From NCBI GenBank assembly GCA_029258835.1, contig JAPDJY010000012.1, forward strand, positions 1-61,274: a DNA stretch of 61,274 nucleotides, in the 5' to 3' direction. The translations under genes and the position numbers were made by a program. Origin of the DNA: Thermoproteota archaeon. Its GTDB lineage: Archaea > Asgardarchaeota > Jordiarchaeia > Jordiarchaeales > Freyrarchaeaceae. Positions 21,647 through 35,236 of this stretch are shown in pieces. The notes beneath the pieces were generated by a model. It was not told the DNA's origin. It searched no databases and was given only the letters and a program-made list of their open reading frames with translations. Numbering within the stretch: the stretch's first letter is position 1; each line of letters begins with the position of its first letter.

Positions 21647-22842
21647 CGTACCTATATGAAAAAGTCTCCACTTCGCAGGGTTTTTCCCTTATCAGGAAGG
21701 ATCGAGTGTTCCTCGTGAGAAAGCTTGAAGGATTGATTTTTGACTGTGACGGGGTAATATTTGATGTTTCAGAGTCGTTCAGGTCAGCCATAATGCTCAC
21801 CGTTAACTGGTTCTTCAACGTTGTCATGGGGTTTAGCGTGGACGAGCTTGCCAAACCAGACCATATACAGCTACTTAAGGACTCAGGAGGATTTAACAAC
21901 GACTGGGAGTTAACGTATGCATTAGTCCTCTATTATCTCACAACGCTGATAATAGACGCCTTAACGAAGAGCGTCCACCTCAAACTGCCAAGTAGCTCCT
22001 CTGTAAGCACAATGAACGAAGCCTACTCCCTCTTCAGAGAACTTGGTAGGATGTTAAGGAAAAGAGGCGTACAACTTAAACCTGCAACCTCCTTGGAACT
22101 GGAGGAATACATTGAAGAAGCTGGGAATGGCGGCTTACGATCTGTTGAAGAGGTCTCAGCTAGAAGAGTCTCCGCCGCTACAGGCATAAGCACCAGTCAT
22201 GCTAAAGCGGTGCTAGATGCTTTATCCCCTTTTAAAGGAGACCTTTACGGCACGAACATAATTAAGCGGTACTTTGAAGAGTTATACTCTGGAAAAGACC
22301 TGTTCGTCCAAGTTTATAGGGTTCACCCCGTATTTCACCGTGGAGAAGGGTTGATAGAGAAAGAAAAACTAATAGTTAGACGTGAAGCTCTTGCAGGGCT
22401 GATTAGTTTCGGTTTTCCTCCAATAGGCATCGCCTCGGGAAGGTTGAGAAAGCAAACGCTTCCCATAATTGAAAGATATGGTGTTGAGCGTTTCTTCAAT
22501 TTGCCTGCTTCCACTTTCCTAGAGGAAGTAAAGGAAAAAGAGGAGGAGCTCTTGAGGGTGGGCGTCTCCGTTAAATTAGAGAAGCCTAATCCTTATTCTC
22601 TTCTTTCAACAGCCTCGAAAATGGGCATCCGGGAAGCGTTCGGTTATGTAGGTGACACCGTGTCCGATGTTTTAGCATCAATAAACGCCGAGAAGGAAAG
22701 CAAATATTCTGTTATGAGCATTGGGGTACTCTGCTCAACTGTTAATAAGGCGAGGACCATCGAGAAGTTTTTAGAGCTAGGTTGCGATATAATTGCACCC
22801 AGCCCGAACGAGCTGCCAGAAATACTTGCTGAGGTGTGTTAA
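21643..22842 (+). CDS. HAD-family hydrolase, candidate histidinol-phosphate phosphatase
   Basis: FDCDGV motif I, GGFNNDW, KPNP, YVGDTVSDV; located between hisC and a monofunctional hisB. Confidence 0.75.
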   Translation: MTYLYEKVSTSQGFSLIRKDRVFLVRKLEGLIFDCDGVIFDVSESFRSAIMLTVNWFFNVVMGFSVDELAKPDHIQLLKDSGGFNNDWELTYALVLYYLTTLIIDALTKSVHLKLPSSSSVSTMNEAYSLFRELGRMLRKRGVQLKPATSLELEEYIEEAGNGGLRSVEEVSARRVSAATGISTSHAKAVLDALSPFKGDLYGTNIIKRYFEELYSGKDLFVQVYRVHPVFHRGEGLIEKEKLIVRREALAGLISFGFPPIGIASGRLRKQTLPIIERYGVERFFNLPASTFLEEVKEKEEELLRVGVSVKLEKPNPYSLLSTASKMGIREAFGYVGDTVSDVLASINAEKESKYSVMSIGVLCSTVNKARTIEKFLELGCDIIAPSPNELPEILAEVC

Positions 22843-23421
22843 ATGAGAGAGGCCGCTGTTAGCAGGAAAACCGCTGAGACAAAGGTTAAAGTTAAAGTCA
22901 ATTTGGACGGAAGCGGCGTAGGGGAAGCAAAAACTGGAGTAAAGTTTCTAGATCACATGTTAAAGACGTTCTCTAAGCACTCCTTAATAGACGTTTCAAT
23001 AGAAGCCGAAGGTGATTTAAAGCATCATGTGATCGAAGATGTTGGAATAACGCTTGGCGAAGCTCTAAAGAAGGCGCTTGGAGACAAGAAAGGAATCTTC
23101 AGGTTTGGAAGCTGCGTCATCCCCATGGATGACGCATTAGTGGCTGTAGCTTTAGATTGCGGAGGACGTCCATATGCAAGTATAGACCTAAAGCTAGAGG
23201 GCAGCCAAGTCGAGGACATGGCGTCCCAGGAAGTAAAGCATTTCTTTGTCTCCCTAGCTAACTCTCTAGGGTTAAACCTGCACATTAACACGTTGTATGG
23301 AGAGAATGACCATCACAAGGTCGAAGCCGCCTTCAAGGCTGTTGCGGTAGCGTTAAGGCAAGCTGTTAGTATAGATCCTCGAAGAAAAGGCGAGGTTGCA
23401 AGCCTTAAGGAGATGCTTTAA
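22843..23421 (+). CDS. hisB: Imidazoleglycerol-phosphate dehydratase
   Basis: FLDHML, HHVIEDVGI, PMDDA, NDHHKVEA. Confidence 0.96.
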   Translation: MREAAVSRKTAETKVKVKVNLDGSGVGEAKTGVKFLDHMLKTFSKHSLIDVSIEAEGDLKHHVIEDVGITLGEALKKALGDKKGIFRFGSCVIPMDDALVAVALDCGGRPYASIDLKLEGSQVEDMASQEVKHFFVSLANSLGLNLHINTLYGENDHHKVEAAFKAVAVALRQAVSIDPRRKGEVASLKEML

Positions 23422-24037
23422 GATGTTAATGTGCGTGGTGGACTACGGCGTAGGGAACCTGAGAAGCATAGTTAGGGGGCTGGAGAAGGCAGGTGCCTCC
23501 GCTAAGTTGACAAGGGACGCCAAGGAATTATCGGATGCCGACGCGATAGTCCTTCCAGGAGTAGGCGCCTTTAAGGACGCGATGGAAAACCTAGCCAGCT
23601 TAAAAAACACCCTTCTCGACGAAATAAAGAGTGGAAAGCCGCTTTTAGGCATATGCCTTGGCCTTCAGCTTCTTTTCACCGAAAGCACAGAGGGTGGCTT
23701 ACACAAGGGACTTGACGTCGTAAACGGGAAAGTTGTAAGGTTGCCTAGCAACGTGAAAGTACCACACATAGGCTGGAACACTATAAAACTTCATGACCAT
23801 AGCATTTCCTTGTTTGAAGGAATAACAGATGAATCATACTTCTACTTTGTTCACTCATACTATGCCGTGCCCAAAGATGAGAACGTGGTAGCGGCGAGAA
23901 CGCGATATGGTGTGTCCTTCCCCTCGGTTATTCGCAAGAGCAACGTGTTCGCCACACAATTTCATCCAGAGAAGTCTGGCAGAATAGGCTTAAAGCTTCT
24001 TAGGAACTTTGTTCAAATGGTTAAGGAAGGGTTTTAG
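23396..24037 (+). CDS. hisH: IGP synthase glutamine amidotransferase subunit
   Basis: DYGVGNL, GICLGLQ, YFVHSY, QFHPEKS; start probably about 23423. Confidence 0.96.
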   Translation: MQALRRCFKMLMCVVDYGVGNLRSIVRGLEKAGASAKLTRDAKELSDADAIVLPGVGAFKDAMENLASLKNTLLDEIKSGKPLLGICLGLQLLFTESTEGGLHKGLDVVNGKVVRLPSNVKVPHIGWNTIKLHDHSISLFEGITDESYFYFVHSYYAVPKDENVVAARTRYGVSFPSVIRKSNVFATQFHPEKSGRIGLKLLRNFVQMVKEGF

Positions 24038-24784
24038 ATGCTCATAATTCCCTCAGTAGACATCCTTAAAGGTAAATGTGTAAGGCTAACTAGGGGTCAA
24101 CCTGGCAGCGAAGAAGTTTTCTTTCAAGACCCCCTTAAGGCGGCCCTTCACTGGGAAAATCAAGGAGCGGAAGCGTTACACATAGTAGACTTAGATGGTG
24201 CCCTAGGTCAAGGGGACAATATGCGCCACATCAGAAGAATCCTTAAAGAAGTGTCCATTGACGTTGAGGTTGGGGGAGGAATCAGAAGCCTAGAAAAAGC
24301 CATAAAGATTTACTCCATGGGAGCCGAACGTGTAATTCTAGGCTCCTTCGCTTTTAGAGATCCTAAAGCTGTCAAGAAACTTGCCGGTGAAATAGGCGGA
24401 AACCATGTTATGGTGGCGCTGGACTATAAAGGTGAAATGATTATGGTGGAAGGGTGGACCAAAACAGTTAACGCGAACGTTTACGACGTAGCCGCCGGAT
24501 TTGAGGAGGCCGGCGCTCGCTGGATCCTAGCTACAGCCGTGACGCGTGACGGCACCCTCAAAGGAGCAGACGTAAGGGTTATTTCAGAGCTAGTAAGGAA
24601 AGTTAAGGTTATGGTTGTTGCCTCAGGAGGAGTGAAAAGCTTAGAGGACGTCATAGCTCTTAAAAATGCCGGTGCCGCCGGCGTAGTAATTGGAAAAGCT
24701 CTTTACAAGGGCCTTCTCTCTTTGAGGGAAGCGAAGGAGGCTGCAAGATGCTGGCAAAGAGGATCATACCCTGCCTTGACATGA
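24038..24784 (+). CDS. hisA: ProFAR isomerase
   Basis: [34 protein letters not shown]. Confidence 0.95.
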
Positions 24785-25554
24785 CTGGAGGACGAGTGGT
24801 TAAAGGTATCCGCTTTAAAAACTTGAGGGATGCCGGCGATCCCGCAGAGCTAGCCCGCCTCTACGATGAAGAAGGCGCTGACGAACTGGTGTTCTTAGAC
24901 ATAACCGCTTCAAGCGATCAAAGGCAAATTTTAATAGACGTGGTCGAGCGAACAGCAGATAATGTTTTTATACCGTTCACCGTGGGCGGCGGGATCAGAA
25001 GTATGGAAGACATAAGGCAAGTTCTATGTGCCGGTGCAGATAAGGTTGCGATAAACACCGCAGCAGTTAAGAAACCCCAACTAATAAGGGACGCAGCCAG
25101 AAAATTTGGCAGTCAATGCATCGTCTGCGCCATTGACGCTAAAAGAGTGCTGGCAAGCAAGAAGGACCCTGATAGAATAACAGTGTCGACCCCTGAGGGA
25201 AGATTCTGGTGGGAAGTCTACATATATGGAGGCCGGCAGCCCACAGGGATCGACGCTATAAAGTGGTCCATTACCGTTGAAAGGCTGGGAGCAGGGGAAA
25301 TCCTCTTAACAAGCATGGATTACGATGGAACCAAGAAAGGGTACGACGTATACCTCACAAAGGAGGTCTGTAGAAGGGTGAGGGTGCCTGTTATTGCAAG
25401 TGGAGGCGCAGGGAGCCCCGACCACATATACCAAGCTCTAACGCAAGGAGGGGCTGACGCAGCACTGGCAGCCTCCATATTCCACTATGGAATATACTCG
25501 ATAAGCGAGGTTAAAAAATATTTAGCTAGAAAAGGGGTTCCCGTGAGGCTATAA
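24748..25554 (+). CDS. hisF: IGP synthase cyclase subunit
   Basis: [36 protein letters not shown]. Confidence 0.97.
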
Positions 25555-25556
25555 AC

Positions 25557-26225
25557 ATGAACATCAAGGAAGTTGTTAACAAGCTGGATTTCCAGAAGGG
25601 AGGAGGAATAATACCTGCAATAATTCAAGACGTTAAAACCAAAGAGGTGCTAATGTTAGGATACATGGACAAGGAGGCCCTAGAGAGAACACTCACCACA
25701 GGTTACATGCACTACTACAGTAGGACTAGGAGGCGAATCTGGATGAAAGGTGAGGAATCGAAGCACTATCAGTTGGTCCGTGAAGCATACTGCGACTGCG
25801 ACTACGACGCTCTCCTATTCAAAGTAGAGCAAAAGGAAGCGTGTTGCCACGAAGGATACTACACTTGCTTCCATAACGTGATAAGAGGCAATAAAACGTT
25901 CAGGAGGGTTTTCCAGCCGGAAGTAGTCTACAGCCAGGCGAAGATACTGGACGAAATCTTCAATGTAATAATGGATCGCATGGAAAAACCTAGGAAGGGT
26001 TCCTATGTCTCAAACCTGACCGGGAAAGGTCTAAACGCAGTGCTCCAGAAGGTGGGTGAGGAAGCGGTAGAACTTATAATTGCAGCGAAGGACGGGGGGA
26101 GACGGGAAGTAGTAAGCGAGGCAGCAGACCTGCTATTTCACGTGCTAGTGCTTTTAGCCAAGAAGGGAGTGAAAATAAGCGAAGTTTACGAGGAGCTAAG
26201 AAAAAGGAGGGAGAGCAAAAGCTAG
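25557..26225 (+). CDS. hisIE: Bifunctional PR-AMP cyclohydrolase / PR-ATP pyrophosphatase
   Basis: WMKGEES, DCDYDALL, CHEG..TCF then KVGEEAVE, EAADLLFH. Confidence 0.95.
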   Translation: MNIKEVVNKLDFQKGGGIIPAIIQDVKTKEVLMLGYMDKEALERTLTTGYMHYYSRTRRRIWMKGEESKHYQLVREAYCDCDYDALLFKVEQKEACCHEGYYTCFHNVIRGNKTFRRVFQPEVVYSQAKILDEIFNVIMDRMEKPRKGSYVSNLTGKGLNAVLQKVGEEAVELIIAAKDGGRREVVSEAADLLFHVLVLLAKKGVKISEVYEELRKRRESKS

Positions 26226-27841: not shown

Positions 27842-29050
27842 TTACATTTTTTGGAGTAACGGTGTTATGATTAGTGTTATCATCCCTGGTTTTATAGCTG
27901 ATTTCTTTGAAATATGACTTTGTATGGCTGCTGCTCTTTGTATTTCTATGGGGAGCTGCTCCAGTTCTACGTTTGTGTAGAATGCGATCATGTGGTTCTC
28001 TCCCAGTCTAGGGAGAAACTGTATTAGTAACGGGTTGATGAACTCTCTTTTTTTGGGGTTGTTGACGGTTACGACTATTCTTCTGCTTTGGGGTGCCGTC
28101 TTTATTTTCTGAGTCACATAGCGGATCTGGTTTACTTGTTTTCTTTCTCCTTCGTCGCTCTTCCCTTCGTATTTTTCTAGTTCTTGAAGGAGCTGGTAAT
28201 AACTTTCAGGGGGGTTTGGCGGTGGCTCGGCTTTCTCTATCCTTAAGGTTAAATACAGGTATTTCGTTGAATCATCTTGTTTTTCCGCATACCTTTGGAA
28301 GGCGTCTCTTACCCTCTTGATGGCTGACTGAGGCGTCGTAGCCGTTAACATTATTGGCCCAGCTATCCTGTTAGTTCTTTCATGCGTGTAGGTTGGAGTC
28401 TGATTTTGCTCTAATGCGAGTTTAACATCTTCTTCGGATGTTTTGTATATGTGGGCTGATGCTGAGATCGTGGTTGTTGTGCCTATGGACCGGATCCCTC
28501 TGAATTGTGATGCTACTTCCGTCAGGAAAACCCTGTTTATTCCTGCGACATCGTCTGGGTATGCCCTTGCCATGTCGTTGCTCCTGATGTACACTATTAC
28601 GTGGACGACGTCTGCAACCCTGTGGAATAGGATCATGTTGATGCAGGGTGGGTTAGCATTTTCAATATCTGAAACGGGGTTCCATAGTTGGATCAGGGCT
28701 ACTCTGTCCTCCTTCAGTTTTTCTTTAGCCTGCTTAACTTGGTCAACTTGAAACCTTTTTCTTGCGCACCAGCCGTAAGTGTACGTGTGCCCCCCTCTTT
28801 CGGATGTTATGTATTGAGGTATGTAGCTTTCCTGAAGCGTCTTTAAGTCCATTCCAATGTACCCACGTGGTAGGGGAGGGCCGCTCCTCCAGTTAGTTAA
28901 GTGGATCACGCACCCTATAGTTTCTAGGGTCTCTTGCTTTTTATCCTCGGTGGTTAAGGGGACTCCCTTCTGAAGGATTATCCTGTTCACCTGTCTCCAG
29001 GCGCCGTCTATGTGGCATACCCGCACTAAGTAGGGGCCGTAGGCCTTCAT
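27842..29050 (-). CDS. Tandem two-domain thymidylate synthase/dCMP hydroxymethylase-superfamily protein
   Basis: N-domain: YTYG, VDQV, LWNP, PPC catalytic Cys, RSNDMARAYPDD, SAHIY; C-domain is a degenerate copy (VNQIRYV..KIK..PQSRR..V..NP) lacking Cys. Confidence 0.85.
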   Translation of the reverse strand: MKAYGPYLVRVCHIDGAWRQVNRIILQKGVPLTTEDKKQETLETIGCVIHLTNWRSGPPLPRGYIGMDLKTLQESYIPQYITSERGGHTYTYGWCARKRFQVDQVKQAKEKLKEDRVALIQLWNPVSDIENANPPCINMILFHRVADVVHVIVYIRSNDMARAYPDDVAGINRVFLTEVASQFRGIRSIGTTTTISASAHIYKTSEEDVKLALEQNQTPTYTHERTNRIAGPIMLTATTPQSAIKRVRDAFQRYAEKQDDSTKYLYLTLRIEKAEPPPNPPESYYQLLQELEKYEGKSDEGERKQVNQIRYVTQKIKTAPQSRRIVVTVNNPKKREFINPLLIQFLPRLGENHMIAFYTNVELEQLPIEIQRAAAIQSHISKKSAIKPGMITLIITPLLQKM

Positions 29051-30549
29051 GTTCCATCCTTCCCCAACTGGTAGTATGGATGAACCGGCCTAGGCATCAC
29101 GTTAAGAACGTTGCACAGTTCGTCTGCCACAGTTACTTCTGCAGCTGCAACTTGCCGGAAAATTCTTGGAGCGTTTCTCATAGGTCCATAAAGATTTAGG
29201 TCTACACCGTAGAGTACGGGAAGGCTGTATATGAACGAGAAGTCCATTTTCTGCTTCATTTCCGGTGGGATGCCTGCATAAAGATTGTGGATGCCTATCG
29301 CCGTAGGGTATCCGTAATGGTTCTTTAGTGCCCATGACGAGTAAACAGCCTCTATGCTTCCTTCCCCAAGGATCGGGACGCCTGGGTCAAGAATAACGTT
29401 ATCAACCACTGCTCCTTTAACTCTGGATAGTATCTGGTCTATCTTTTTAAATCTGGCTTCAAGCGTGAAGTCGTAAGCCAGGATTATTGCATAGTCTATC
29501 GGGGATATTTCTTGAAGCATCCTTGCTTCCTTCTCTTCAACGCTTAGTATCGAGTTATAAATTATCCTCCCGTTCAACCCTGTTTCCTTCGCCACCCTCG
29601 TGGCTTCCACCCGTGCTTCCAAGCTTGTTGAATCGATTATTATTGGGGCATCTGTTACGTCCGCTACAAAGAACATATATTTTGTAAGTGCTTCGGCGGT
29701 CTCCCCAACCACATGGACCATTGAAGGTATCCCGTACTCCTCTGAGAGTTCCGCCTGCTGTATTATAAGTTTCTCCGCGCCTTCTTTATCGAATAAACCT
29801 TTCCTTCCATCTTTAACTAAAGGATCTTTCCTGAAGAAGAGCGTTCCAGCAAGGACGGAAGCATACTCTCCCCTCTGCCCCCCAAGCTTGACCCCTGCAA
29901 TGTCATAGACGATCAGCTTCCTGCGATGGAAAAGTGTATTTACCGGCTCAACCCCTCTTAGCCTTAGGTCCTCGCCCTCCCTTAGAACCCGTTCTAGCGC
30001 CGTCATCCAATCATATTTTTCCTCTCTCGGAGAGGGGAGAAGCGGCTGCTCGGGGTAGGCTTCAACCTGCCTTGCCGAGAAGGAACGAATTACTGAGACT
30101 ATCTTGTCAGGATCCTTCTCGCCACGTAAATCTATGATCTCGACTTGCTTTTTGAATCTTTCAACTACAATGTGAGGGGTAGCGATCTTAAAGTATTTCG
30201 GGTGAAGAATCGGGATTGTTCCCTCGCTCCCAATAACCCTAAAATCGTCTCCTATCCCGTTTTGGTGAAGTGCGACCAGAGTCTGTCCTGGCTCATGGCC
30301 TACCACCTTTTCTCCGCAGACAACGAGGAACCTGATGTGGCTGTTAGATACTACGTTCTGAAGTATCCTTGCTATTCCGTCATTTTCCGTTTCACATGAA
30401 CCTGCTATTGCGACAAGTTTAGGTTCTTTCGCGATGATCCTTTCAGGTAGGTCGTGGGATCCACAGGTTACAACGGCAAAGGATGCTTTCCTGTTCCCTA
30501 CGGTATAATCTCCAGCTATGTAAGGCCACTCCAACGTGCTGCCTCCCAC
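29047..30549 (-). CDS. mtrAH: Soluble MtrA (corrinoid) - MtrH (methyl-pterin methyltransferase) fusion
   Basis: MtrA: WPYIAGDY.VG, TCGSH, CETENDGI, NSHIRFLVVCGEKVVGHEPGQ (Co-ligand His); MtrH: IAGVKLGGQRGEY..VLAGTLF, GETAEAL, IIDST, IYNSI, GIHN, LYGP; no TM anchor. Confidence 0.9.
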   Translation of the reverse strand: MGGSTLEWPYIAGDYTVGNRKASFAVVTCGSHDLPERIIAKEPKLVAIAGSCETENDGIARILQNVVSNSHIRFLVVCGEKVVGHEPGQTLVALHQNGIGDDFRVIGSEGTIPILHPKYFKIATPHIVVERFKKQVEIIDLRGEKDPDKIVSVIRSFSARQVEAYPEQPLLPSPREEKYDWMTALERVLREGEDLRLRGVEPVNTLFHRRKLIVYDIAGVKLGGQRGEYASVLAGTLFFRKDPLVKDGRKGLFDKEGAEKLIIQQAELSEEYGIPSMVHVVGETAEALTKYMFFVADVTDAPIIIDSTSLEARVEATRVAKETGLNGRIIYNSILSVEEKEARMLQEISPIDYAIILAYDFTLEARFKKIDQILSRVKGAVVDNVILDPGVPILGEGSIEAVYSSWALKNHYGYPTAIGIHNLYAGIPPEMKQKMDFSFIYSLPVLYGVDLNLYGPMRNAPRIFRQVAAAEVTVADELCNVLNVMPRPVHPYYQLGKDGT

Positions 30550-30646
30550 AAAAAGTAAAAGACCTGTTTCACTCTTTTGTTTAAAATCACATCCTATAAA
30601 ACGTTCGGGGCGTTATTAGTTAAGTGGTACACCTTAAAACTAGGAC

Positions 30647-31498
30647 GTGGAGGGAGAAGTGTTGGCTGATACTGTGGGTGAAATCGTTAAGACCATGATG
30701 AAGCTTGCCCCTCCAGAATTAGCTTTAAGGGACGATGCCATCGGCTTTCAGGTAGAACCGCACAGGAGGGGGATGAATAAGCTTGTCCGGCGCTGCGGGG
30801 TTGCATTAGATCCTTCTTTGGCTGTTATCAGGGAAGCTGTAGAGGCAGGTGTTTCTCTTCTCATAACCCATCATCCTCTATTCACCCAGCCGGTAAATAG
30901 GGTTGATGGAGGCCTCTTAAGACGGCTGAAGCTTCTGCTGGATAACAACATTGCCCTTTATGTCGCCCACTCAAACCTTGACGCTGCAGAGGGCGGGTTA
31001 AACGACACGCTAGCCGAAGTTTTAAATCTAAACATTGTAGATGTCTTGGAGGTTGCCGATGGAAACGGTACCGTTCCACTAGGGCGGGTTTGCATGGTGA
31101 AAGTGAAAGAAATGAAATTAGAGACCTTTGCAGACTACGTTTTTCATAAGCTTGACGCTGAACTCGTCCAGTACGTTAAGGCGAGGGAAAAACCTATAGA
31201 AAAGGTTGCCGTCGCCTGCGGGCGGAACGCATCCCCCAGCCTTCTCGTTTATTCCAAGAAGAAGGGTGCAGACACTTACCTGACAGGCGAGTTCTCTTAC
31301 AGTCTGGCTTTAACAGGGGAAGAAGAAGGGGTGAACGTTGTTAGTGTCAGCCATTACGACACGGAGAAACACGGAATGAAAAAAGTTGCCCAGCTACTGA
31401 GCATAGAGCATCCTGAAGTTCATGTCTTGTTCTTCGACCTCAAACCTAAAGTGTTCCACTTCGTAAAAGGCGAAATTGAAGATGCATTTGAGCTCTAG
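30647..31498 (+). CDS. Nif3/YbgI-like dinuclear metal-centre protein
   Basis: ITHHPLF, HSNLDAAEGGLND, YLTGE, SHYDTE. Confidence 0.9.
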   Translation: MEGEVLADTVGEIVKTMMKLAPPELALRDDAIGFQVEPHRRGMNKLVRRCGVALDPSLAVIREAVEAGVSLLITHHPLFTQPVNRVDGGLLRRLKLLLDNNIALYVAHSNLDAAEGGLNDTLAEVLNLNIVDVLEVADGNGTVPLGRVCMVKVKEMKLETFADYVFHKLDAELVQYVKAREKPIEKVAVACGRNASPSLLVYSKKKGADTYLTGEFSYSLALTGEEEGVNVVSVSHYDTEKHGMKKVAQLLSIEHPEVHVLFFDLKPKVFHFVKGEIEDAFEL

Positions 31499-31620: not shown

Positions 31621-32184
31621 TTACGTTGTCCATTTTTTAAGCTTGTTGAACACTCTTGCAATCAACTCCGCGTTTTCTTTAAACCGTGTTATGTCTTCTC
31701 TGGATAATACTCTAACCTGGGCTGCCGGTGCCCCTGCAACGCTAGTCCTAGGCGGTACCACCGTGTTCTGTGCAACTATCGATCCTGAGGCGACGAGTGC
31801 TCCCTCCCCTATTGTTGCCCCTTCAAAGATGATTGCCCCGTCTCCTATGACAGCCACATCTCCACAGTAGCATCCATGCATTACAACGTTACTTCCCACG
31901 GAAACGAAATTTCCTATTATAACTGGAGCGCTTTCCGAGCGGGCGTGAATTATTGTTCCATCCTGTATGTTTGTGTAGCTGCCGATCTGAACCTTCCCGA
32001 AGTCTCCTCTTATCACGCAGCCGGGCCATACACTTGAAAACTCCCCTATTTCAACGTCCCCTATTATAGTAGCTTGAGGGCTGACAAAGGCGTTTTTATC
32101 AATTCTAGGTTGCTTGCCTTGAAACTCTAGAATAGGCATTTCCCACTCCTCCATAAAACAGGGGGGCTTTGCCGAGCACTTCAT
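31621..32184 (-). CDS. Gamma-carbonic-anhydrase-family (YrdA-like) hexapeptide protein
   Basis: IIGDVEIGE.SSVW...VIRGD, NIQDGTIIH; start likely 32139. Confidence 0.88.
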   Translation of the reverse strand: MKCSAKPPCFMEEWEMPILEFQGKQPRIDKNAFVSPQATIIGDVEIGEFSSVWPGCVIRGDFGKVQIGSYTNIQDGTIIHARSESAPVIIGNFVSVGSNVVMHGCYCGDVAVIGDGAIIFEGATIGEGALVASGSIVAQNTVVPPRTSVAGAPAAQVRVLSREDITRFKENAELIARVFNKLKKWTT

Positions 32185-32237
32185 AGCTTGAACTTATATC
32201 TTATTTTTGGTTTTAAAGCCTTTATCTTTCATATTTT

Positions 32238-33281
32238 TCACATCGATATCATTTCTTCGTAACGGTAGCTTTCCCACTCTGGCTTGCAACTGCAGCTGAG
32301 TTTTTCGATTTCACTCACGTTTTGGCTTAGCGAAAACTTCCTCAGAGCTCCGTCAACTCTCTTATCGCATACGCCGCAGTTGTGAGGGCCCCTTGGGCTT
32401 CCTGAAGCTACAGGGACGCAGATCAACGTCGTATCAATTTCTCGATACACGTCTTGAATTATTTTCACTAGACTCCAGAGCCACGGAGGTCTATAATCAC
32501 CCTTCTTCCATAGTAGCTCAACGAAGGTGCCCTTGTGAACCGTGCAGGGATTCAGTGAGATAACGTCTACACCCATTTCAGATAGAGTTATAATAGAGTT
32601 CTCGGTGTCGATGATGGCCTCCTCCTCTCTTAAAAAAGGCGGCTTAACCAGGAGGTACACTTTAACCCTTGCTCCGAGAGCCTTTGCCACGTCCATTGCC
32701 TTCTTGAACTCCATGAACGTGAACCCTTTATTTATAACTTTCCTAACTTTATCGTTTACCGTTTCGAGCCCGACGGCTATGGTTAACTGCTTTCCTTTGA
32801 GAGCCTGAACGCACCTGCTAACGTTCTCGACCGTCACAAAGCTAGGACGTGTTTCGAGGACGACCTCTTTCACCCTGGGGTCTTTCGATATGAACCATAG
32901 GATTTCATTTTGCGCGTCTTCAGGAACCTCGTTTTCGTCGAGGAAGCTACCTGAAGTAAATATTTTCACAGCCATAGGAGGCTTAGCTGAGGAAGCCTTT
33001 CTGTATGCATCCTTAAACTGGTTAACGATTTGCTTGGAGGACACGTCACCCTTAACGCCTTCATAAATATATCCGCACATCGAACAACCACCATGCTTGG
33101 ATAGTGCCCAACTACACCCCCTAGTAGCTAAAACAACAACGAGTGCCCTCCCCCTTTCACCTAAAACCCTATCTTCTTCGATCCAAGCTCTCGCCGGCCG
33201 CCCTCCCTCCACCCTCCTGAGACCGAGGTACTCCTTTCTCAGCTCCAAGATAGCCTTCGAAAGAACCCTACTAAACGTCAA
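32238..33281 (-). CDS. Archaeosine biosynthesis radical SAM protein RaSEA
   Basis: TRGCSWA..GGCSMCGY, KIFTSGSFLD, ETRP, YRPPWLWS, RGPHNCG; adjacent to arcS. Confidence 0.9.
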   Translation of the reverse strand: MTFSRVLSKAILELRKEYLGLRRVEGGRPARAWIEEDRVLGERGRALVVVLATRGCSWALSKHGGCSMCGYIYEGVKGDVSSKQIVNQFKDAYRKASSAKPPMAVKIFTSGSFLDENEVPEDAQNEILWFISKDPRVKEVVLETRPSFVTVENVSRCVQALKGKQLTIAVGLETVNDKVRKVINKGFTFMEFKKAMDVAKALGARVKVYLLVKPPFLREEEAIIDTENSIITLSEMGVDVISLNPCTVHKGTFVELLWKKGDYRPPWLWSLVKIIQDVYREIDTTLICVPVASGSPRGPHNCGVCDKRVDGALRKFSLSQNVSEIEKLSCSCKPEWESYRYEEMISM

Positions 33282-35236
33282 CTTCCACCCCTCCTTGCAT
33301 GTTTAATCTTAACAGCTACCCCACGGCTAACCTCCACCATTTCCTCCCCGCTGAGGTTAGCCTCCCCTACCCCAATCAACCTCTCAAGACTATTTATGAC
33401 GAAAACCACGTCTCCAGGTCTTATGTTAGGATCAGCATCTTCAACTCCCGGAGCCATTATGGACGAGCCCCTAAACATCTCTCCCCTAAATAAAACCCAG
33501 TGGCTGCGCTTAGCTAATATTTCTCCCCCATTCATCGTTGGAACGATCAACCCCGTTGAAGGCGATGAAGCAGCTAGCAACACGTCCCCGCGATAAAGTC
33601 TCTTAACCCCCTTCCTCTCTACCTTTACGTGTGTACCCTGTTTAACCAGTAGGTCTCCTGCTCCAACACCGAACTGGTAATCTGCAACGCTTCTAAAGGC
33701 TTCTTTAACCCTTTCAAACCAGCTGACTTCCTCCGATGGAACTCTTTCTAATGTCTCCCTTAGGGAAAGTAGTGAAGACGAACTGGTCGGGTTTCCCTCT
33801 ATTTCCGTGTAAATTATGTCCTTACCTGCTATTTCACTCGCCTTCTTGCATGCTTTAAGGTATCCTCCATCAAGATGGGCTACTATAGCACAGTCATCAG
33901 GAAACTTCTCTATGTATTTTGAAATGCATTTAGCAGCTATTTCTATCTCTTCAGCATCCCAGTCCCCTGTTACCGGTACGTCGTAGTGTGCTGCAGGATA
34001 AACCTCCTCAAGCTCCCTTGGCACCAGCCCCAATGGGGAAGTCACTATCCCCTCACAGATGCTCTTGACTCCTGCTTCCTCCACCACCCTTCTGAAAAGC
34101 TTATGTGACGGTGACTGAGAGTATGGTTTTCTAGCGGAGCAAGGTAGGAGGAGGACGGCAGTAGCCCACTTGGGTGGCGTATACCTTTCAGCTACCCTTC
34201 CTCTGAACCGCTCTAAGGATGGACGATAATAAGACTCGGGTCCTACGCAATGTACCTTGCCTTTACCCGAAATAGGGGTGTATTTTTCTAGGAGCCGCTG
34301 CGCATCCCGGTCCAGTATTCGAAGGAGAGCAGTTAACTCCGTTGAACAGTGTGCCGCCGCCTCCACGCCTTCACGGAGCTGCGTGCTTCTTATGAGTAAC
34401 TCCGCTTTTCTTAGGATTCCCAACGCCGAAAGGACGTTATGCTTAAAAAGAAGCTGAAATCTTTCATCCTCACTTAGCACGCTTGGCAGTTTTACACACG
34501 CATCACAGAAGCATGGTAAACTCTTAAAGTCCTTCAACTGGTACCATTTCCCCTCAAAAAGGTAAAGCCCATTTAGCGATGCGCCGATTAGGTTTGCCGC
34601 GTCGAATAGGTCAACACCCAAGTATGTTAGGTGAAGGTAGTGTGATGGTGGAACCCCTACAGCGTAAACCACAGCATTAGGGCTAATAAACTTGTTAACA
34701 GCCGTCATAAAAGCAGCCAGCTCCCTTGGGTTATGGATAATACGGTTTAGCCCCTTCAAAACGTACATTTCAGCGCCGGCAGCATTGATCCCTGAAAGAT
34801 ATTCTTCCCAAAGATCCTTGTAAGGTATGTAATATATCGGGGCTGCTATAGGTGATCCCCCAGCCAGCTTCCTGAAAACCCTAGTATTTTCTATTACTTC
34901 AAGCATTAGCTGCTGGGCTACCTCCCGAGGCCCGATAACTGGCGTACTGGGAACCATTAGGATGTCGCCACCTGACTTTAACTCCATGTTTAAGGCTTCC
35001 TCTAAATCAAGAAGTAATGGTCCTATGGTGCCTACAATTCGAACCTTCTCCCTGAAAGTTGCATTTACTAGAGCACCACTACTTGACGCTACAACTACCG
35101 TTATTTCGGCTTGAACCGGTAGGCTAAAATGGCCGTTGAGTAATGGAAACACTAGGTTCGGCGTTCCCACCACTTTCCCGTTAATTCTTAAACGGGATAC
35201 TCTTCCGGGTCCATCATGGCACATTATCTCGATCAT
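33278..35236 (-). CDS. arcS: Archaeosine synthase alpha subunit (TGT-like plus PUA)
   Basis: HDGPGR, YLGVDLFD, LLPCSARKPYSQSPSH, VTSPLGLVPRELE..YPAAHYDVPVTGDW, C-terminal PUA. Confidence 0.93.
   Translation of the reverse strand: MIEIMCHDGPGRVSRLRINGKVVGTPNLVFPLLNGHFSLPVQAEITVVVASSSGALVNATFREKVRIVGTIGPLLLDLEEALNMELKSGGDILMVPSTPVIGPREVAQQLMLEVIENTRVFRKLAGGSPIAAPIYYIPYKDLWEEYLSGINAAGAEMYVLKGLNRIIHNPRELAAFMTAVNKFISPNAVVYAVGVPPSHYLHLTYLGVDLFDAANLIGASLNGLYLFEGKWYQLKDFKSLPCFCDACVKLPSVLSEDERFQLLFKHNVLSALGILRKAELLIRSTQLREGVEAAAHCSTELTALLRILDRDAQRLLEKYTPISGKGKVHCVGPESYYRPSLERFRGRVAERYTPPKWATAVLLLPCSARKPYSQSPSHKLFRRVVEEAGVKSICEGIVTSPLGLVPRELEEVYPAAHYDVPVTGDWDAEEIEIAAKCISKYIEKFPDDCAIVAHLDGGYLKACKKASEIAGKDIIYTEIEGNPTSSSSLLSLRETLERVPSEEVSWFERVKEAFRSVADYQFGVGAGDLLVKQGTHVKVERKGVKRLYRGDVLLAASSPSTGLIVPTMNGGEILAKRSHWVLFRGEMFRGSSIMAPGVEDADPNIRPGDVVFVINSLERLIGVGEANLSGEEMVEVSRGVAVKIKHARRGGS

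What the first reader, a model, noticed from the sequence alone, without database searches (positions are those of the whole stretch)
27842..30549. MtrA-MtrH fusion coupled to a thymidylate-synthase-like enzyme: candidate corrinoid-dependent pyrimidine C5-methylation system
Seen: a soluble MtrA-MtrH fusion (Co-ligand His kept, no TM anchor, no other mtr genes in the window) overlaps by 4 bp (ATGA, 29047-50) with a ThyA-fold gene, indicating translational coupling. Established: MtrH moves CH3 from methyl-H4MPT to the MtrA cobamide. ThyA-fold enzymes activate C5 via a Cys adduct at C6, and classical ThyA oxidises its folate and needs a reductase. Inference: methyl-pterin -> MtrH -> MtrA methyl-Co -> C5 of the Cys-activated nucleotide. 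This would be a third kind of thymidylate/5-methylpyrimidine synthesis, distinct from ThyA and ThyX, repurposing the Na+-pumping Mtr subunits for nucleotide biosynthesis.
Basis: partly seen in the sequence, partly recalled or inferred. Interest (0 to 1): 0.9.

Follow-up and report, generated by a model that had tools for sequence, protein, structure and literature searches.

The report
B12 methyl-carrier paired with thymidylate synthase
In this Asgard archaeon the only recognisable enzyme for making the DNA base thymine is an odd single-chain thymidylate-synthase relative. Its gene always sits directly behind a soluble vitamin-B12-type methyl-carrier gene, which points to an untested B12-dependent third way of making thymidylate.

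Summary
On the minus strand, a 500-aa soluble MtrA-MtrH fusion (29047-30549) overlaps by ATGA a 402-aa ThyA-fold gene (27842-29050). The MtrA part keeps the cobalt ligand His and its Glu partner and has no membrane helix.

The pair is not a chance neighbour. All 18 Asgard genomes with this long ThyA form (5 families) have the fusion directly upstream, in at least 5 different genomic contexts. Those families have no ThyX and no other ThyA.

The ThyA-like protein is a tandem of two ThyA folds. Domain 1 holds Cys136, RSND and HIY. Domain 2 has lost the Cys but keeps the invariant Ser-Arg-Arg. The Asn177 position is Asp in 33 of 33 homologues, and the folate-contact residues are replaced.

Natural MtrA-ThyA-DUF4346 fusions are the nearest relatives of the catalytic domain, but their MtrA part has lost the His and Glu ligands.

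My best reading, at about 0.45, is methyl-H4MPT to MtrH to methyl-cobamide on MtrA to C5 of a Cys-activated dUMP (possibly dCMP). No chemistry was tested. The absence of FolA is uninformative, because it is missing from 397 of 400 Asgard genomes.

The scan noted the same pair before in other genomes. I found no paper that links MtrAH to ThyA.

The parts
29047..30549 (-). Gene for a soluble MtrA-MtrH fusion (500 aa, P0001). It is the first gene of the two-gene unit.
   Evidence: ORF. Pfam MtrA plus MtrH. NCBIfam mtrA and mtrH equivalogs match but fall below their cut-offs. PDB hits are MtrH 8Z9U, MtgA 6SJ8 and MtrA 5LAA/5L8X.
30037..30531 (-). MtrA (corrinoid-binding) domain, aa 7-171. The His85 codon is at 30295-30297 and the Glu55 codon at 30385-30387.
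   Evidence: Genome search places MtrA at C14:30037-30531. Alignment to 5LAA puts His85 on His84 and Glu55 on Glu54. Both are invariant in 22 of 22 fusions. No transmembrane segment.
29125..29919 (-). MtrH (methyl-pterin:corrinoid methyltransferase, TIM-barrel) domain, aa 211-475.
   Evidence: Pfam MtrH at 3.5e-60. Genome search coordinates. Equally similar to MtrH (8Z9U) and to the methylcorrinoid:tetrahydrofolate methyltransferase MtgA (6SJ8), both near 3e-44.
29047..29050 (-). ATGA overlap: the TGA stop of the MtrAH gene shares bases with the ATG start of the ThyA-like gene.
   Evidence: The same 4-bp overlap occurs in a Jordarchaeales relative (L006: 4511-6004 and 6001-7170). Other lineages have gaps of 2 to 43 bp.
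27842..29050 (-). Gene for a 402-aa single-chain tandem ThyA-fold protein (P0002).
   Evidence: ORF. Pfam Thymidylat_synt. AlphaFold2 model with pLDDT 93.0 and pTM 0.93. This is the only PF00303 match in the genome.
28376..29050 (-). ThyA-fold domain 1 (aa 1-225), the catalytic half. It carries Cys136 (codon 28643-28645), Arg156-Ser157-Asn158-Asp159, Asp167 at the Asn177 position (codon 28550-28552), and His200 and Tyr202.
   Evidence: Residue table against E. coli ThyA. Invariant columns in 31 homologues. Best structural matches are phage dCMP hydroxylase 9IQU (Z 22.4), MilA (Z 20.7) and ThyA (Z about 19).
27845..28369 (-). ThyA-fold domain 2 (aa 228-402), a degenerate half. It has no catalytic Cys (NPLLIQF) but keeps the invariant Ser322-Arg323-Arg324.
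   Evidence: Folded alone: pLDDT 92.9. All 7 PDB representatives with Z of 8 or more are ThyA-superfamily chains (Z 16.1 to 11.8), and the next hit scores 5.8. tblastn of aa 303-394 against a short ThyA gives 1.5e-6. Invariant SRR.
30550..30646 (.). Intergenic region shared with the divergent NIF3 gene. It holds A/T-rich TATA-like boxes (TTTTATAG, ATTTTAAAC) about 35-55 nt upstream of the GTG start.
   Evidence: Read directly from the sequence. The promoter role is inferred and untested.

Best explanation
The two genes encode a three-module corrinoid methyl-transfer system that serves as the cell's thymidylate synthase.

Proposed steps:
1. The MtrH domain takes the methyl group from N5-methyl-H4MPT and puts it on the Co(I) cobamide held, His-on, by the fused MtrA domain.
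2. The single-chain ThyA-fold enzyme binds a pyrimidine deoxynucleotide in its one complete active site. Cys136, Arg156, Ser157, His200 and Tyr202 come from domain 1. Arg323 and Arg324 come from domain 2.
3. Cys136 adds to C6 of the base.
4. The resulting C5 carbanion attacks methyl-Co(III).
5. Elimination of the Cys gives the 5-methyl nucleotide and Co(I).

The net reaction is dUMP + CH3-H4MPT -> dTMP + H4MPT, with no oxidation of the pterin.

Shown here: the gene pair, its conservation, the domain anatomy, the retained ligand and catalytic residues, and that this is the only ThyA- or ThyX-type gene in the genome.

Inferred: that the two proteins bind each other, the direction of methyl flow, the attack of C5 on methyl-cobalt, and the identity of the nucleotide. 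dUMP is favoured on physiological grounds. dCMP is possible because of Asp167.
For: Conserved pairing:
- MtrAH lies immediately upstream on the same strand in 18 of 18 Asgard genomes with the long ThyA form (families f1, f2, f4, f28, f29).
- It also does so on Jordarchaeales, Freyarchaeota, Atabeyarchaeia, 'Lokiarchaeia' and Promethearchaeota contigs with unrelated flanks.
- The two genomes of f1 and f28 that lack one gene lack both.

Sole thymidylate synthase candidate:
- There is one PF00303 locus, no ThyX and no thymidine kinase in this genome.
- ThyX is found in 0 of 19 genomes of the five long-form families but is common elsewhere in the phylum.

Ligands and supporting pathway:
- The corrinoid ligands His85 and Glu55 are invariant in 22 of 22 fusions.
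- The genome has methenyl-H4MPT cyclohydrolase, a MetF-like gene and a RACo-type corrinoid activase.
- dUMP supply is plausible, with two DCD-family genes.

Active site:
- The nucleotide-activating residues are invariant: Cys146, Arg166, Ser167, Asp169, His207 and Tyr209 (E. coli numbering).
- The folate-contact positions are replaced: Trp80 and Trp83 are lost, Leu172 becomes Arg, and Phe176 becomes Asp or Glu.

Link between the MtrA fold and the ThyA fold elsewhere:
- MtrA-ThyA-DUF4346 fusion proteins occur in two other Asgard families and in Patescibacteria.
- These fusions make up 92 of the 141 next-best relatives of the catalytic domain among 1.84 billion representatives.
- One sits between dCTP deaminase and thymidylate kinase genes.
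- In family f24, ThyX is in 6 of 7 genomes and the seventh carries the fusion.

Precedent from my own knowledge: SN2 methyl transfer from methyl-Co(III) to nucleophiles (MetH, MtrE, MtaA), polar methylation of an sp2 carbon by TsrM, and Cys-at-C6 activation with an electrophilic methyl donor in m5C and m5U methyltransferases.
Against: - No biochemical or structural test of the complex was possible here.
- Asp159, the equivalent of the folate-pterin ligand Asp169, is still invariant. A pterin could therefore still bind at the active site.
- The MtrA-like domain of the tri-domain fusions keeps the His in only 2 of 123 and the Glu in 0 of 123. No MtrH was seen next to three such genes. The wider ThyA-MtrA link therefore need not involve cobalt.
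- One fusion-bearing operon also carries ThyX.
- Asp at the Asn177 position (33 of 33), and best structural matches to dCMP- and CMP-acting enzymes, argue against dUMP as substrate.
- CobS was not found in this genome, so the cobamide supply is unverified.
- The absence of FolA is phylum-wide and uninformative.
- Published metatranscriptomes of relatives show only weak mtr expression (PMC11291895).
Confidence: 0.45

Rival explanations
1. Classical chemistry with an accessory pterin module. The ThyA-fold enzyme takes the methylene group and a hydride from CH2-H4MPT, as ThyA does from CH2-H4folate. The minimal enzyme has lost its own folate-binding elements. MtrAH (and MtrA-like plus DUF4346 in the fusions) would then act as a docking, pterin-presenting or regulatory partner, not as a methyl-cobalt donor.
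For: - Asp169-equivalent Asp159 is invariant.
- The tri-domain fusions have lost the corrinoid His and Glu yet remain conserved and sit in dTTP operons.
- DUF4346 is a domain otherwise attached to pterin-binding proteins (Pfam name).
- Cell extracts of Methanosarcina made dTMP from dUMP with formaldehyde and tetrahydrosarcinapterin, as summarised in PMC9931769.
Against: - In the Asgard fusions the His-Glu cobalt-ligand pair is invariant in 22 of 22. That is hard to explain if no corrinoid is used.
- MtrH-family enzymes handle methyl-level pterins, not methylene-level ones (established for MtrH and MtgA; one search shows which relatives are solved).
- The folate-contact residues Trp80, Trp83, Leu172 and Phe176 are replaced by polar or charged residues.
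- No dihydropterin reductase partner was identified.
Confidence: 0.25
2. A cytosine-nucleotide methylase. The enzyme methylates dCMP (or CMP or dCTP) at C5 with the MtrAH-borne methyl group. It would make 5-methyl-dCMP for DNA modification, or as a precursor that is later deaminated to a thymine nucleotide.
For: - Asp replaces Asn177 in 33 of 33 homologues. From my own knowledge of the family, Asp at this position defines T4 dCMP hydroxymethylase, and the N229D/N177D mutation switches ThyA to dCMP.
- The best structural matches are phage dCMP hydroxylase 9IQU/9IQC (Z 22.4 and 21.9) and CMP hydroxymethylase MilA (Z 20.7), ahead of ThyA (Z about 19).
Against: - The genome would then have no route to dTMP. 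There is no other ThyA, no ThyX, no thymidine kinase and no dCMP/cytidine deaminase-family gene.
- The invariant Arg162, at the Leu172 position, could pair with Asp167 and still read uracil (inference).
- The related short, fused and second tandem forms keep Asn.
Confidence: 0.15
3. Co-location without a shared reaction. MtrAH feeds methyl groups between H4MPT and some other acceptor, as proposed for Asgard MtrAH in the literature, and the ThyA gene merely shares an operon because both belong to C1 metabolism.
For: - The literature treats the acceptor of Asgard MtrAH as unknown and suggests coenzyme M (PMC11291895).
- The genome also holds a stand-alone MtrH and a RACo activase, which suggests other corrinoid methyl transfers.
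Against: - Adjacency holds in 18 of 18 genomes through at least 5 changes of genomic context, with gaps from -4 to 43 bp.
- The two genes are lost together.
- MtrA-fold and ThyA-fold domains are fused in one chain in many lineages.
- This is the only MtrA in the genome.
Confidence: 0.07

Closest known systems
MtrA and MtrH of the methanogen N5-methyl-H4MPT:coenzyme M methyltransferase (MtrA-H; PDB 5LAA, 5L8X, 8Q3V, 8Z9U)
   Same: Both domains pass the Pfam thresholds. The MtrA part keeps the His84/Glu54 cobalt-ligand pair. The MtrH part is the methyl-pterin:corrinoid methyltransferase TIM barrel.
   Different: The two domains are fused in one soluble chain. There is no C-terminal membrane helix. 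No MtrE was found in the genome. The NCBIfam equivalog scores are below cut-off. The partner is a ThyA-fold protein, not the MtrE/coenzyme M half-reaction.
Asgard 'MtrAH fusion' clade described by Valentin-Alvarado et al. 2024 (PMC11291895)
   Same: It is the same protein family, found in Atabeyarchaeia, Freyarchaeia and other Asgard lineages. One of my loci (L010) comes from a complete Atabeyarchaeia genome, CP147779.
   Different: That paper leaves the methyl acceptor open and suggests coenzyme M. It does not mention the thymidylate-synthase-like gene that follows the fusion.
Short archaeal/methanogen-type thymidylate synthase (NCBIfam TIGR03283; ThyA superfamily PF00303)
   Same: It is the best NCBIfam match (1.8e-31). 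Domain 1 shares the minimal fold and the Cys, RSxD and HIY motifs.
   Different: The score is 109 against a cut-off of 174.55. The protein is twice as long, with two ThyA folds in one chain. The Arg-Arg pair has moved to the second fold. Asn177 is replaced by Asp.
ThyA-fold enzymes acting on cytosine nucleotides: T4 dCMP hydroxymethylase (6L18), MilA CMP hydroxymethylase (5JNH), phage dCMP hydroxylase AfhB (9IQU/9IQC, flavin-dependent)
   Same: They are the closest solved structures to domain 1 (Z 20-22). Asp at the base-reading position is shared (for T4 dCH, D179, by my own knowledge of the family). AfhB shows that the fold can work with a cofactor other than folate, judging by the entry title.
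   Different: Sequence identity is only 17-20%. Those enzymes are homodimers and none is linked to a corrinoid protein.
Three-component corrinoid methyltransferase systems (MtaABC, MtgABC, MetH; methyl donor enzyme, corrinoid protein, methyl acceptor enzyme)
   Same: The logic proposed here is the same: a pterin-side methyltransferase (MtrH), a corrinoid carrier (MtrA) and a third catalytic module. A RACo-type activase is present in the genome.
   Different: Known acceptors are thiols, pterin N5 or nickel. A carbon of a nucleotide, activated by a ThyA-fold enzyme, would be a new acceptor and a new kind of third module.
Uncharacterised MtrA-ThyA-DUF4346 tri-domain proteins of Patescibacteria, DPANN and some Asgard archaea
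   Same: They are the nearest relatives of domain 1 outside its own family. They also join an MtrA fold to a minimal ThyA, and they sit in dTTP-synthesis operons.
   Different: They have one ThyA fold that keeps Arg-Arg and Asn177. Their MtrA part has lost His and Glu. They carry a DUF4346 domain and no MtrH domain, and no MtrH neighbour was seen.

Membership tests
Thymidylate synthase ThyA (PF00303) | Profile match above the curated threshold | tested here: met
   64.7 bits against a cut-off of 24.3, aa 87-219. Structural Z is about 19 to many ThyA chains.
Thymidylate synthase ThyA (PF00303) | Catalytic Cys (E. coli C146) and the nucleotide-binding residues R166, S167, H207 and Y209 | tested here: met
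   Cys136, Arg156, Ser157, His200 and Tyr202 are invariant in 31 homologues.
Thymidylate synthase ThyA (PF00303) | Asn177, which reads the uracil base | tested here: not met
   Asp167 is found in 33 of 33 long-form homologues. Asn is kept in the short and fused forms.
Thymidylate synthase ThyA (PF00303) | Folate-contact residues (I79/W80/W83, L172, F176, C-terminal carboxylate) | tested here: not met
   W80 and W83 are not conserved, L172 is Arg, and F176 is Asp or Glu. The alignment in the N-terminal third is less certain.
Thymidylate synthase ThyA (PF00303) | Obligate homodimer in which each subunit gives Arg126/Arg127 to the other's active site | tested here: not met
   Two ThyA folds lie in one chain. 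The Arg-Arg pair is present only in fold 2 and the Cys only in fold 1. The oligomeric state itself could not be tested.
Thymidylate synthase ThyA (PF00303) | Makes dTMP from dUMP and CH2-H4folate, giving H2folate | not testable with these tools
   This needs an enzyme assay.
Methanogen-type ThyA equivalog TIGR03283 | Score above the equivalog cut-off | tested here: not met
   109.2 bits against a cut-off of 174.55.
MtrA (PF04208), corrinoid subunit of Mtr | Profile match and the His84/Glu54 lower-ligand pair | tested here: met
   143.5 bits against 25. His85 and Glu55 align to His84 and Glu54 of 5LAA and are invariant in 22 of 22 fusions.
MtrA (PF04208), corrinoid subunit of Mtr | C-terminal membrane helix and membership of the MtrA-H membrane complex | tested here: not met
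   No hydrophobic segment. No MtrE in the genome. The TIGR01111 score is below cut-off. MtrB-D, F and G were not searched.
MtrA (PF04208), corrinoid subunit of Mtr | Binds a cobamide | not testable with these tools
   This needs reconstitution and spectroscopy.
MtrH (PF02007), methyl-H4MPT:corrinoid methyltransferase | Profile match; equivalog-level match | tested here: inconclusive
   Pfam gives 204.1 bits against 22.8 (met). TIGR01114 gives 191.8 against 271.4 (not met). The domain is equally close to MtrH 8Z9U and to the folate-using MtgA 6SJ8, so pterin type and direction remain open.
Three-component corrinoid methyltransferase system | Donor-side methyltransferase, corrinoid protein and acceptor-side enzyme encoded together, plus a reductive activase | tested here: inconclusive
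   MtrH, MtrA and the ThyA-like gene form one unit. A RACo_C_ter gene lies elsewhere in the genome. That the ThyA-like protein is the acceptor-side enzyme is inferred.

The most novel reading that the evidence does not exclude
The partnership is general. The whole 'minimal' ThyA lineage would depend on an MtrA-fold or other corrinoid partner instead of binding a folate itself. That lineage includes the Asgard tandem form, the short archaeal and methanogen type, and the MtrA-ThyA-DUF4346 fusions of ultra-small bacteria and archaea. It would form a widespread third class of thymidylate synthase that makes dTMP from a methyl-level C1 unit.

Hints:
- In this phylum, MtrA is found in every family that has a minimal-type ThyA, and in 1 of 155 genomes across the four families (f16, f19, f20, f21) whose ThyA hits are of the classical type.
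- A Woesearchaeota short ThyA sits inside an ACS/corrinoid iron-sulfur protein cluster.
Probability: 0.2. Interest if true: 0.95.

Novelty: new variant of a known kind. Interest (0 to 1): 0.8.

Why it matters
Two routes to thymidylate are known, ThyA and ThyX, and both take a methylene group from a folate. How archaea that use methanopterin make dTMP has never been settled with purified enzymes (PMC9931769).

A route that takes a ready-made methyl group from methyl-H4MPT through a cobamide would be a third kind of thymidylate synthesis. It would also be the first corrinoid methyl transfer to a nucleotide carbon. It would make DNA synthesis in these Asgard lineages depend on vitamin B12.

It would also give a function to the 'orphan' Asgard MtrAH fusion, whose methyl acceptor the literature leaves open. 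The single-chain pseudo-dimer is in addition a natural version of the engineered one-site ThyA heterodimers.

All of this is directly testable with two recombinant proteins.

Tried and rejected
- Literature. Searches for MtrAH or MtrH or MtrA with 'thymidylate synthase', and for DUF4346, returned no paper. The Asgard thymidylate paper (PMC9931769) does not contain the words 'Mtr' or 'corrinoid'. Nyce and White 1996 (PMC177745) is not held.
- Triple fusion. A search for longer proteins (705-2010 aa) related to P0002 found none. This is weak evidence.
- N-half against C-half profile comparison. hhalign gave only E 0.035 over 42 columns, in the right register. The duplication rests instead on the separate fold search, tblastn and the second Pfam stretch.
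- 'No DHFR, therefore no pterin oxidation'. I rejected this as evidence, because FolA is missing from 397 of 400 Asgard genomes, including the families with classical ThyA.
- A route through m5dCMP and dCMP deaminase. No PF00383 gene was found, so it is not supported in this genome.
- Expression. No RNA holder was listed for this stretch.
- A cross-phylum scan for short ThyA neighbours failed. The alignment was too diverse, and a single-protein scan gave one locus.
- Context of a second tandem ThyA family (P0082). The contig is only 1.4 kb, so nothing was learnt.
- The stand-alone MtrH on contig 24 has no corrinoid protein among its neighbours.
- A model of the MtrAH:ThyA-like complex, and a cobalt-to-Cys distance, could not be made. 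Only single chains can be folded and no coordinates are returned.


Full report
**What is there**

On the minus strand lie two ORFs. The first, 29047-30549, has a GTG start and encodes 500 aa (P0001). The second, 27842-29050, has an ATG start and encodes 402 aa (P0002). They overlap by ATGA, and a GAAGGA lies 8-10 nt before the ATG.

Pfam finds MtrA (aa 7-171) and MtrH (aa 211-475) in P0001, and Thymidylat_synt in P0002. The NCBIfam equivalogs for mtrA, mtrH and the methanogen-type thymidylate synthase all match but stay below their cut-offs. These are therefore divergent members, not orthologues of the characterised enzymes.

Best homologues are named Jordarchaeales, Freyarchaeota, Atabeyarchaeia and Promethearchaeota. 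The stretch occurs in hydrothermal-vent and marine-sediment metagenomes. The organism is an Asgard archaeon.

**The MtrAH protein**

I aligned the MtrA part to the cobalamin-bound MtrA homologue 5LAA. His85 falls on His84, the cobalt ligand, and Glu55 on its hydrogen-bond partner Glu54 (roles from Wagner et al. 2016, PMC4915002).

Both residues are invariant in 22 of 22 MtrAH fusions that precede this ThyA form. There is no hydrophobic segment.

The genome is 2.72 Mb and 94.7% complete. It has no other MtrA and no MtrE. It has one stand-alone MtrH elsewhere, with no corrinoid neighbour.

The MtrH part is equally similar to MtrH (8Z9U) and to the methylcorrinoid:tetrahydrofolate methyltransferase MtgA (6SJ8). 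Neither the pterin type nor the direction of transfer can be read from sequence.

**The ThyA-like protein**

Against E. coli ThyA, the long form keeps Cys146, Arg166, Ser167, Asp169, His207, Tyr209 and Tyr94. It has Asp at the Asn177 position in 33 of 33 homologues, Arg at Leu172 and Asp or Glu at Phe176. It lacks Trp80 and Trp83, and it lacks the Arg126-Arg127 pair in the first half.

The second half has an invariant Ser322-Arg323-Arg324 followed by NNP, but no Cys.

AlphaFold2 gives a compact model with pLDDT 93.0 and pTM 0.93. Residues 4-225 match ThyA-superfamily structures. The best matches are phage dCMP hydroxylase 9IQU (Z 22.4), MilA (Z 20.7) and then many ThyAs (Z about 19).

I folded residues 228-402 alone (pLDDT 92.9) and searched them without Foldseek. 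They match only ThyA-superfamily chains at Z of 8 or more (16.1 to 11.8). The next hit scores 5.8.

The protein is therefore a tandem of two minimal ThyA folds. In a ThyA homodimer each subunit lends its Arg-Arg pair to the other's site. By analogy, this protein has one composite active site. That last step is inferred, because no coordinates are returned.

**Is the pairing real?**

I searched 400 genomes of the phylum with P0002. They fall into four groups:
- The long form, in 18 genomes of five families (f1, f2, f4, f28, f29).
- Short forms of about 210 aa, mainly in f31.
- Classical ThyA, mainly in f20.
- No ThyA.

In all 18 long-form loci MtrAH lies directly upstream on the same strand. 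The same holds on metagenome and NCBI contigs of five named lineages.

The flanking genes differ between lineages:
- This window: NIF3 and a class IV aminotransferase.
- Jordarchaeales: a VTT-domain gene and ribosomal protein S26e.
- Freyarchaeota and 'Lokiarchaeia': a hexapeptide transferase and the proteasome.
- Atabeyarchaeia: EMG1 and an aminotransferase.
- A Promethearchaeota contig: F420 ligase and ArsA.

The one genome each of f1 and f28 without the ThyA form also lacks MtrA. Related genomes are not independent, but five changes of context are.

**Is it the thymidylate synthase?**

This genome has a single PF00303 locus, no ThyX and no thymidine kinase. ThyX is absent from all 19 other genomes of the five long-form families, several of them closed, and is common in the rest of the phylum.

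Two DCD-family genes could supply dUMP. No dCMP/cytidine deaminase-family gene was found.

The C1 side is present: methenyl-H4MPT cyclohydrolase, a weak MetF-like hit and a RACo-type corrinoid activase. CobS was not found here, although it is present in most close relatives.

**Fusion proteins**

In two other Asgard families the ThyA hit lies in one frame with an MtrA domain. Pfam shows MtrA plus Thymidylat_synt plus PterinBD-DUF4346 (P0036, P0037). This architecture is widespread, also in Patescibacteria.

In an exhaustive search of 1.84 billion representatives, the long form has only 4 clusters at E of 1e-30 or better. Of the 141 newly returned next-best relatives of its catalytic domain, 92 are 430 aa or longer and 32 are 260 aa or shorter. 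Of the 8 long hits that I scanned, 7 show all three domains and one shows ThyA plus DUF4346 only.

One fusion lies between dCTP deaminase and thymidylate kinase genes, though a ThyX gene is next to it too. Within family f24, six genomes have ThyX. The seventh has the fusion and no detected ThyX, but it is only 76% complete.

These fusions support a physical partnership of the two folds in thymidylate metabolism. They do not support cobalt chemistry. The His84 equivalent is kept in 2 of 123 and the Glu54 equivalent in none. No MtrH gene lies nearby in three loci.

**Mechanism**

I commit to a methyl relay: CH3-H4MPT to MtrH, then to methyl-Co(III) on MtrA, then to C5 of a Cys136-activated nucleotide.

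The relay explains five things:
- The invariant cobalt ligands.
- The methyl-level pterin enzyme.
- The loss of folate-contact residues.
- The tight operon.
- The role as the only candidate thymidylate synthase.

Each chemical step has precedent, but the steps are inferred. My confidence is 0.45. It is about 0.85 for a functional partnership and about 0.7 that the enzyme supplies thymidylate.

The main rival is classical methylene chemistry with MtrAH as an accessory. It is kept alive by the invariant Asp169 equivalent and by the ligand-less fusions.

The substrate is a second open point. Asp at position 177 and the structural neighbours point to dCMP. The lack of any other route to dTMP, and of a deaminase, points to dUMP. 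An Asp167-Arg162 pair could read uracil, which is again an inference.

The argument that a classical ThyA 'needs a reductase' carries no weight here. FolA is missing from 397 of 400 Asgard genomes, including those with classical ThyA.

**Known or new?**

The Asgard MtrAH fusion is published, with an unknown acceptor and coenzyme M suggested (PMC11291895). Asgard ThyA and ThyX have been surveyed without any mention of Mtr (PMC9931769).

I found no paper that joins the two. Earlier agents of this scan reported the same pair, the pseudo-dimer and the fusions in other genomes. My tests here agree with them. They add the phylum-wide FolA control and the count of lost ligands in the fusions.

I rate it a new variant of a known kind: a corrinoid methyltransferase system with a new third module and acceptor. 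If the chemistry holds, it is a third class of thymidylate synthase.

Noticed in passing
window 30647-31498 (+): A NIF3/DUF34 gene lies divergently next to the MtrAH/ThyA-like unit. Filee et al. 2023 noted nif3 next to thyX in Prometheoarchaeum (PMC9931769). The neighbour is not conserved in the relatives' loci.
   Followed up: partly
window 31621-35236 (-): An ArcS/TGT-like gene (652 aa), a radical-SAM gene (347 aa) and a hexapeptide transferase (187 aa) lie upstream. They stand in the same order upstream of MtrAH in Freyarchaeota (L008) and 'Lokiarchaeia' (L012). Here NIF3 is inserted between them and the operon.
   Followed up: partly
family f31 genomes, e.g. G383:C28:2768-3343 and 21743-22204; G312:C1:506596-507189 and 487929-488384: In at least 25 genomes with the short ThyA of about 210 aa, a stand-alone MtrA gene (ORF of about 232 aa) lies 17-22 kb away on the same contig. 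This may be no more than synteny among kin.
   Followed up: no
L061:2754-10046 (Woesearchaeota PCXZ01000018.1) and L059:666-3154: A short ThyA sits inside an acetyl-CoA synthase cluster: CdhC-like, CooC-like, ThyA, then CdhD and FeS+CdhD, the two corrinoid iron-sulfur protein subunits. On L059 it lies 9 bp from them. This is a second, unrelated corrinoid protein next to a minimal ThyA.
   Followed up: partly
L054:4854-9563: A CPR-type contig carries, in order, dCTP deaminase, an MtrA-ThyA-DUF4346 fusion, thymidylate kinase and an unusually long (449 aa) ThyX, all on one strand.
   Followed up: no
P0082, P0089 (L062:142-1389): A second, divergent family of 415-aa tandem ThyA-like proteins. It has no Pfam hit, 26% identity to P0002 over both halves, Asn kept at the 177 position and SRR in the second half. 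Its context is unknown because the contig is only 1.4 kb.
   Followed up: partly
L046:1901-2581 (-) (G286:C209): A 226-aa ThyA-like gene (P0038) on a 2.6-kb contig, with Asp at the Asn177 position and a strong Pfam match (1.6e-43). It may be a dCMP-type enzyme of a mobile element.
   Followed up: no
L056:7742-8659 (+) (G000:C24): The genome's second MtrH stands alone. Its neighbours are an ETF alpha subunit, an FAD-linked oxidase, a CCG/Fe-S protein and NAD kinase. No corrinoid protein is nearby.
   Followed up: partly
window 23396-26225 (+): A histidine biosynthesis operon (HisA/HisF-type barrels and a HisIE fusion) lies downstream, on the opposite strand. It looks ordinary.
   Followed up: no
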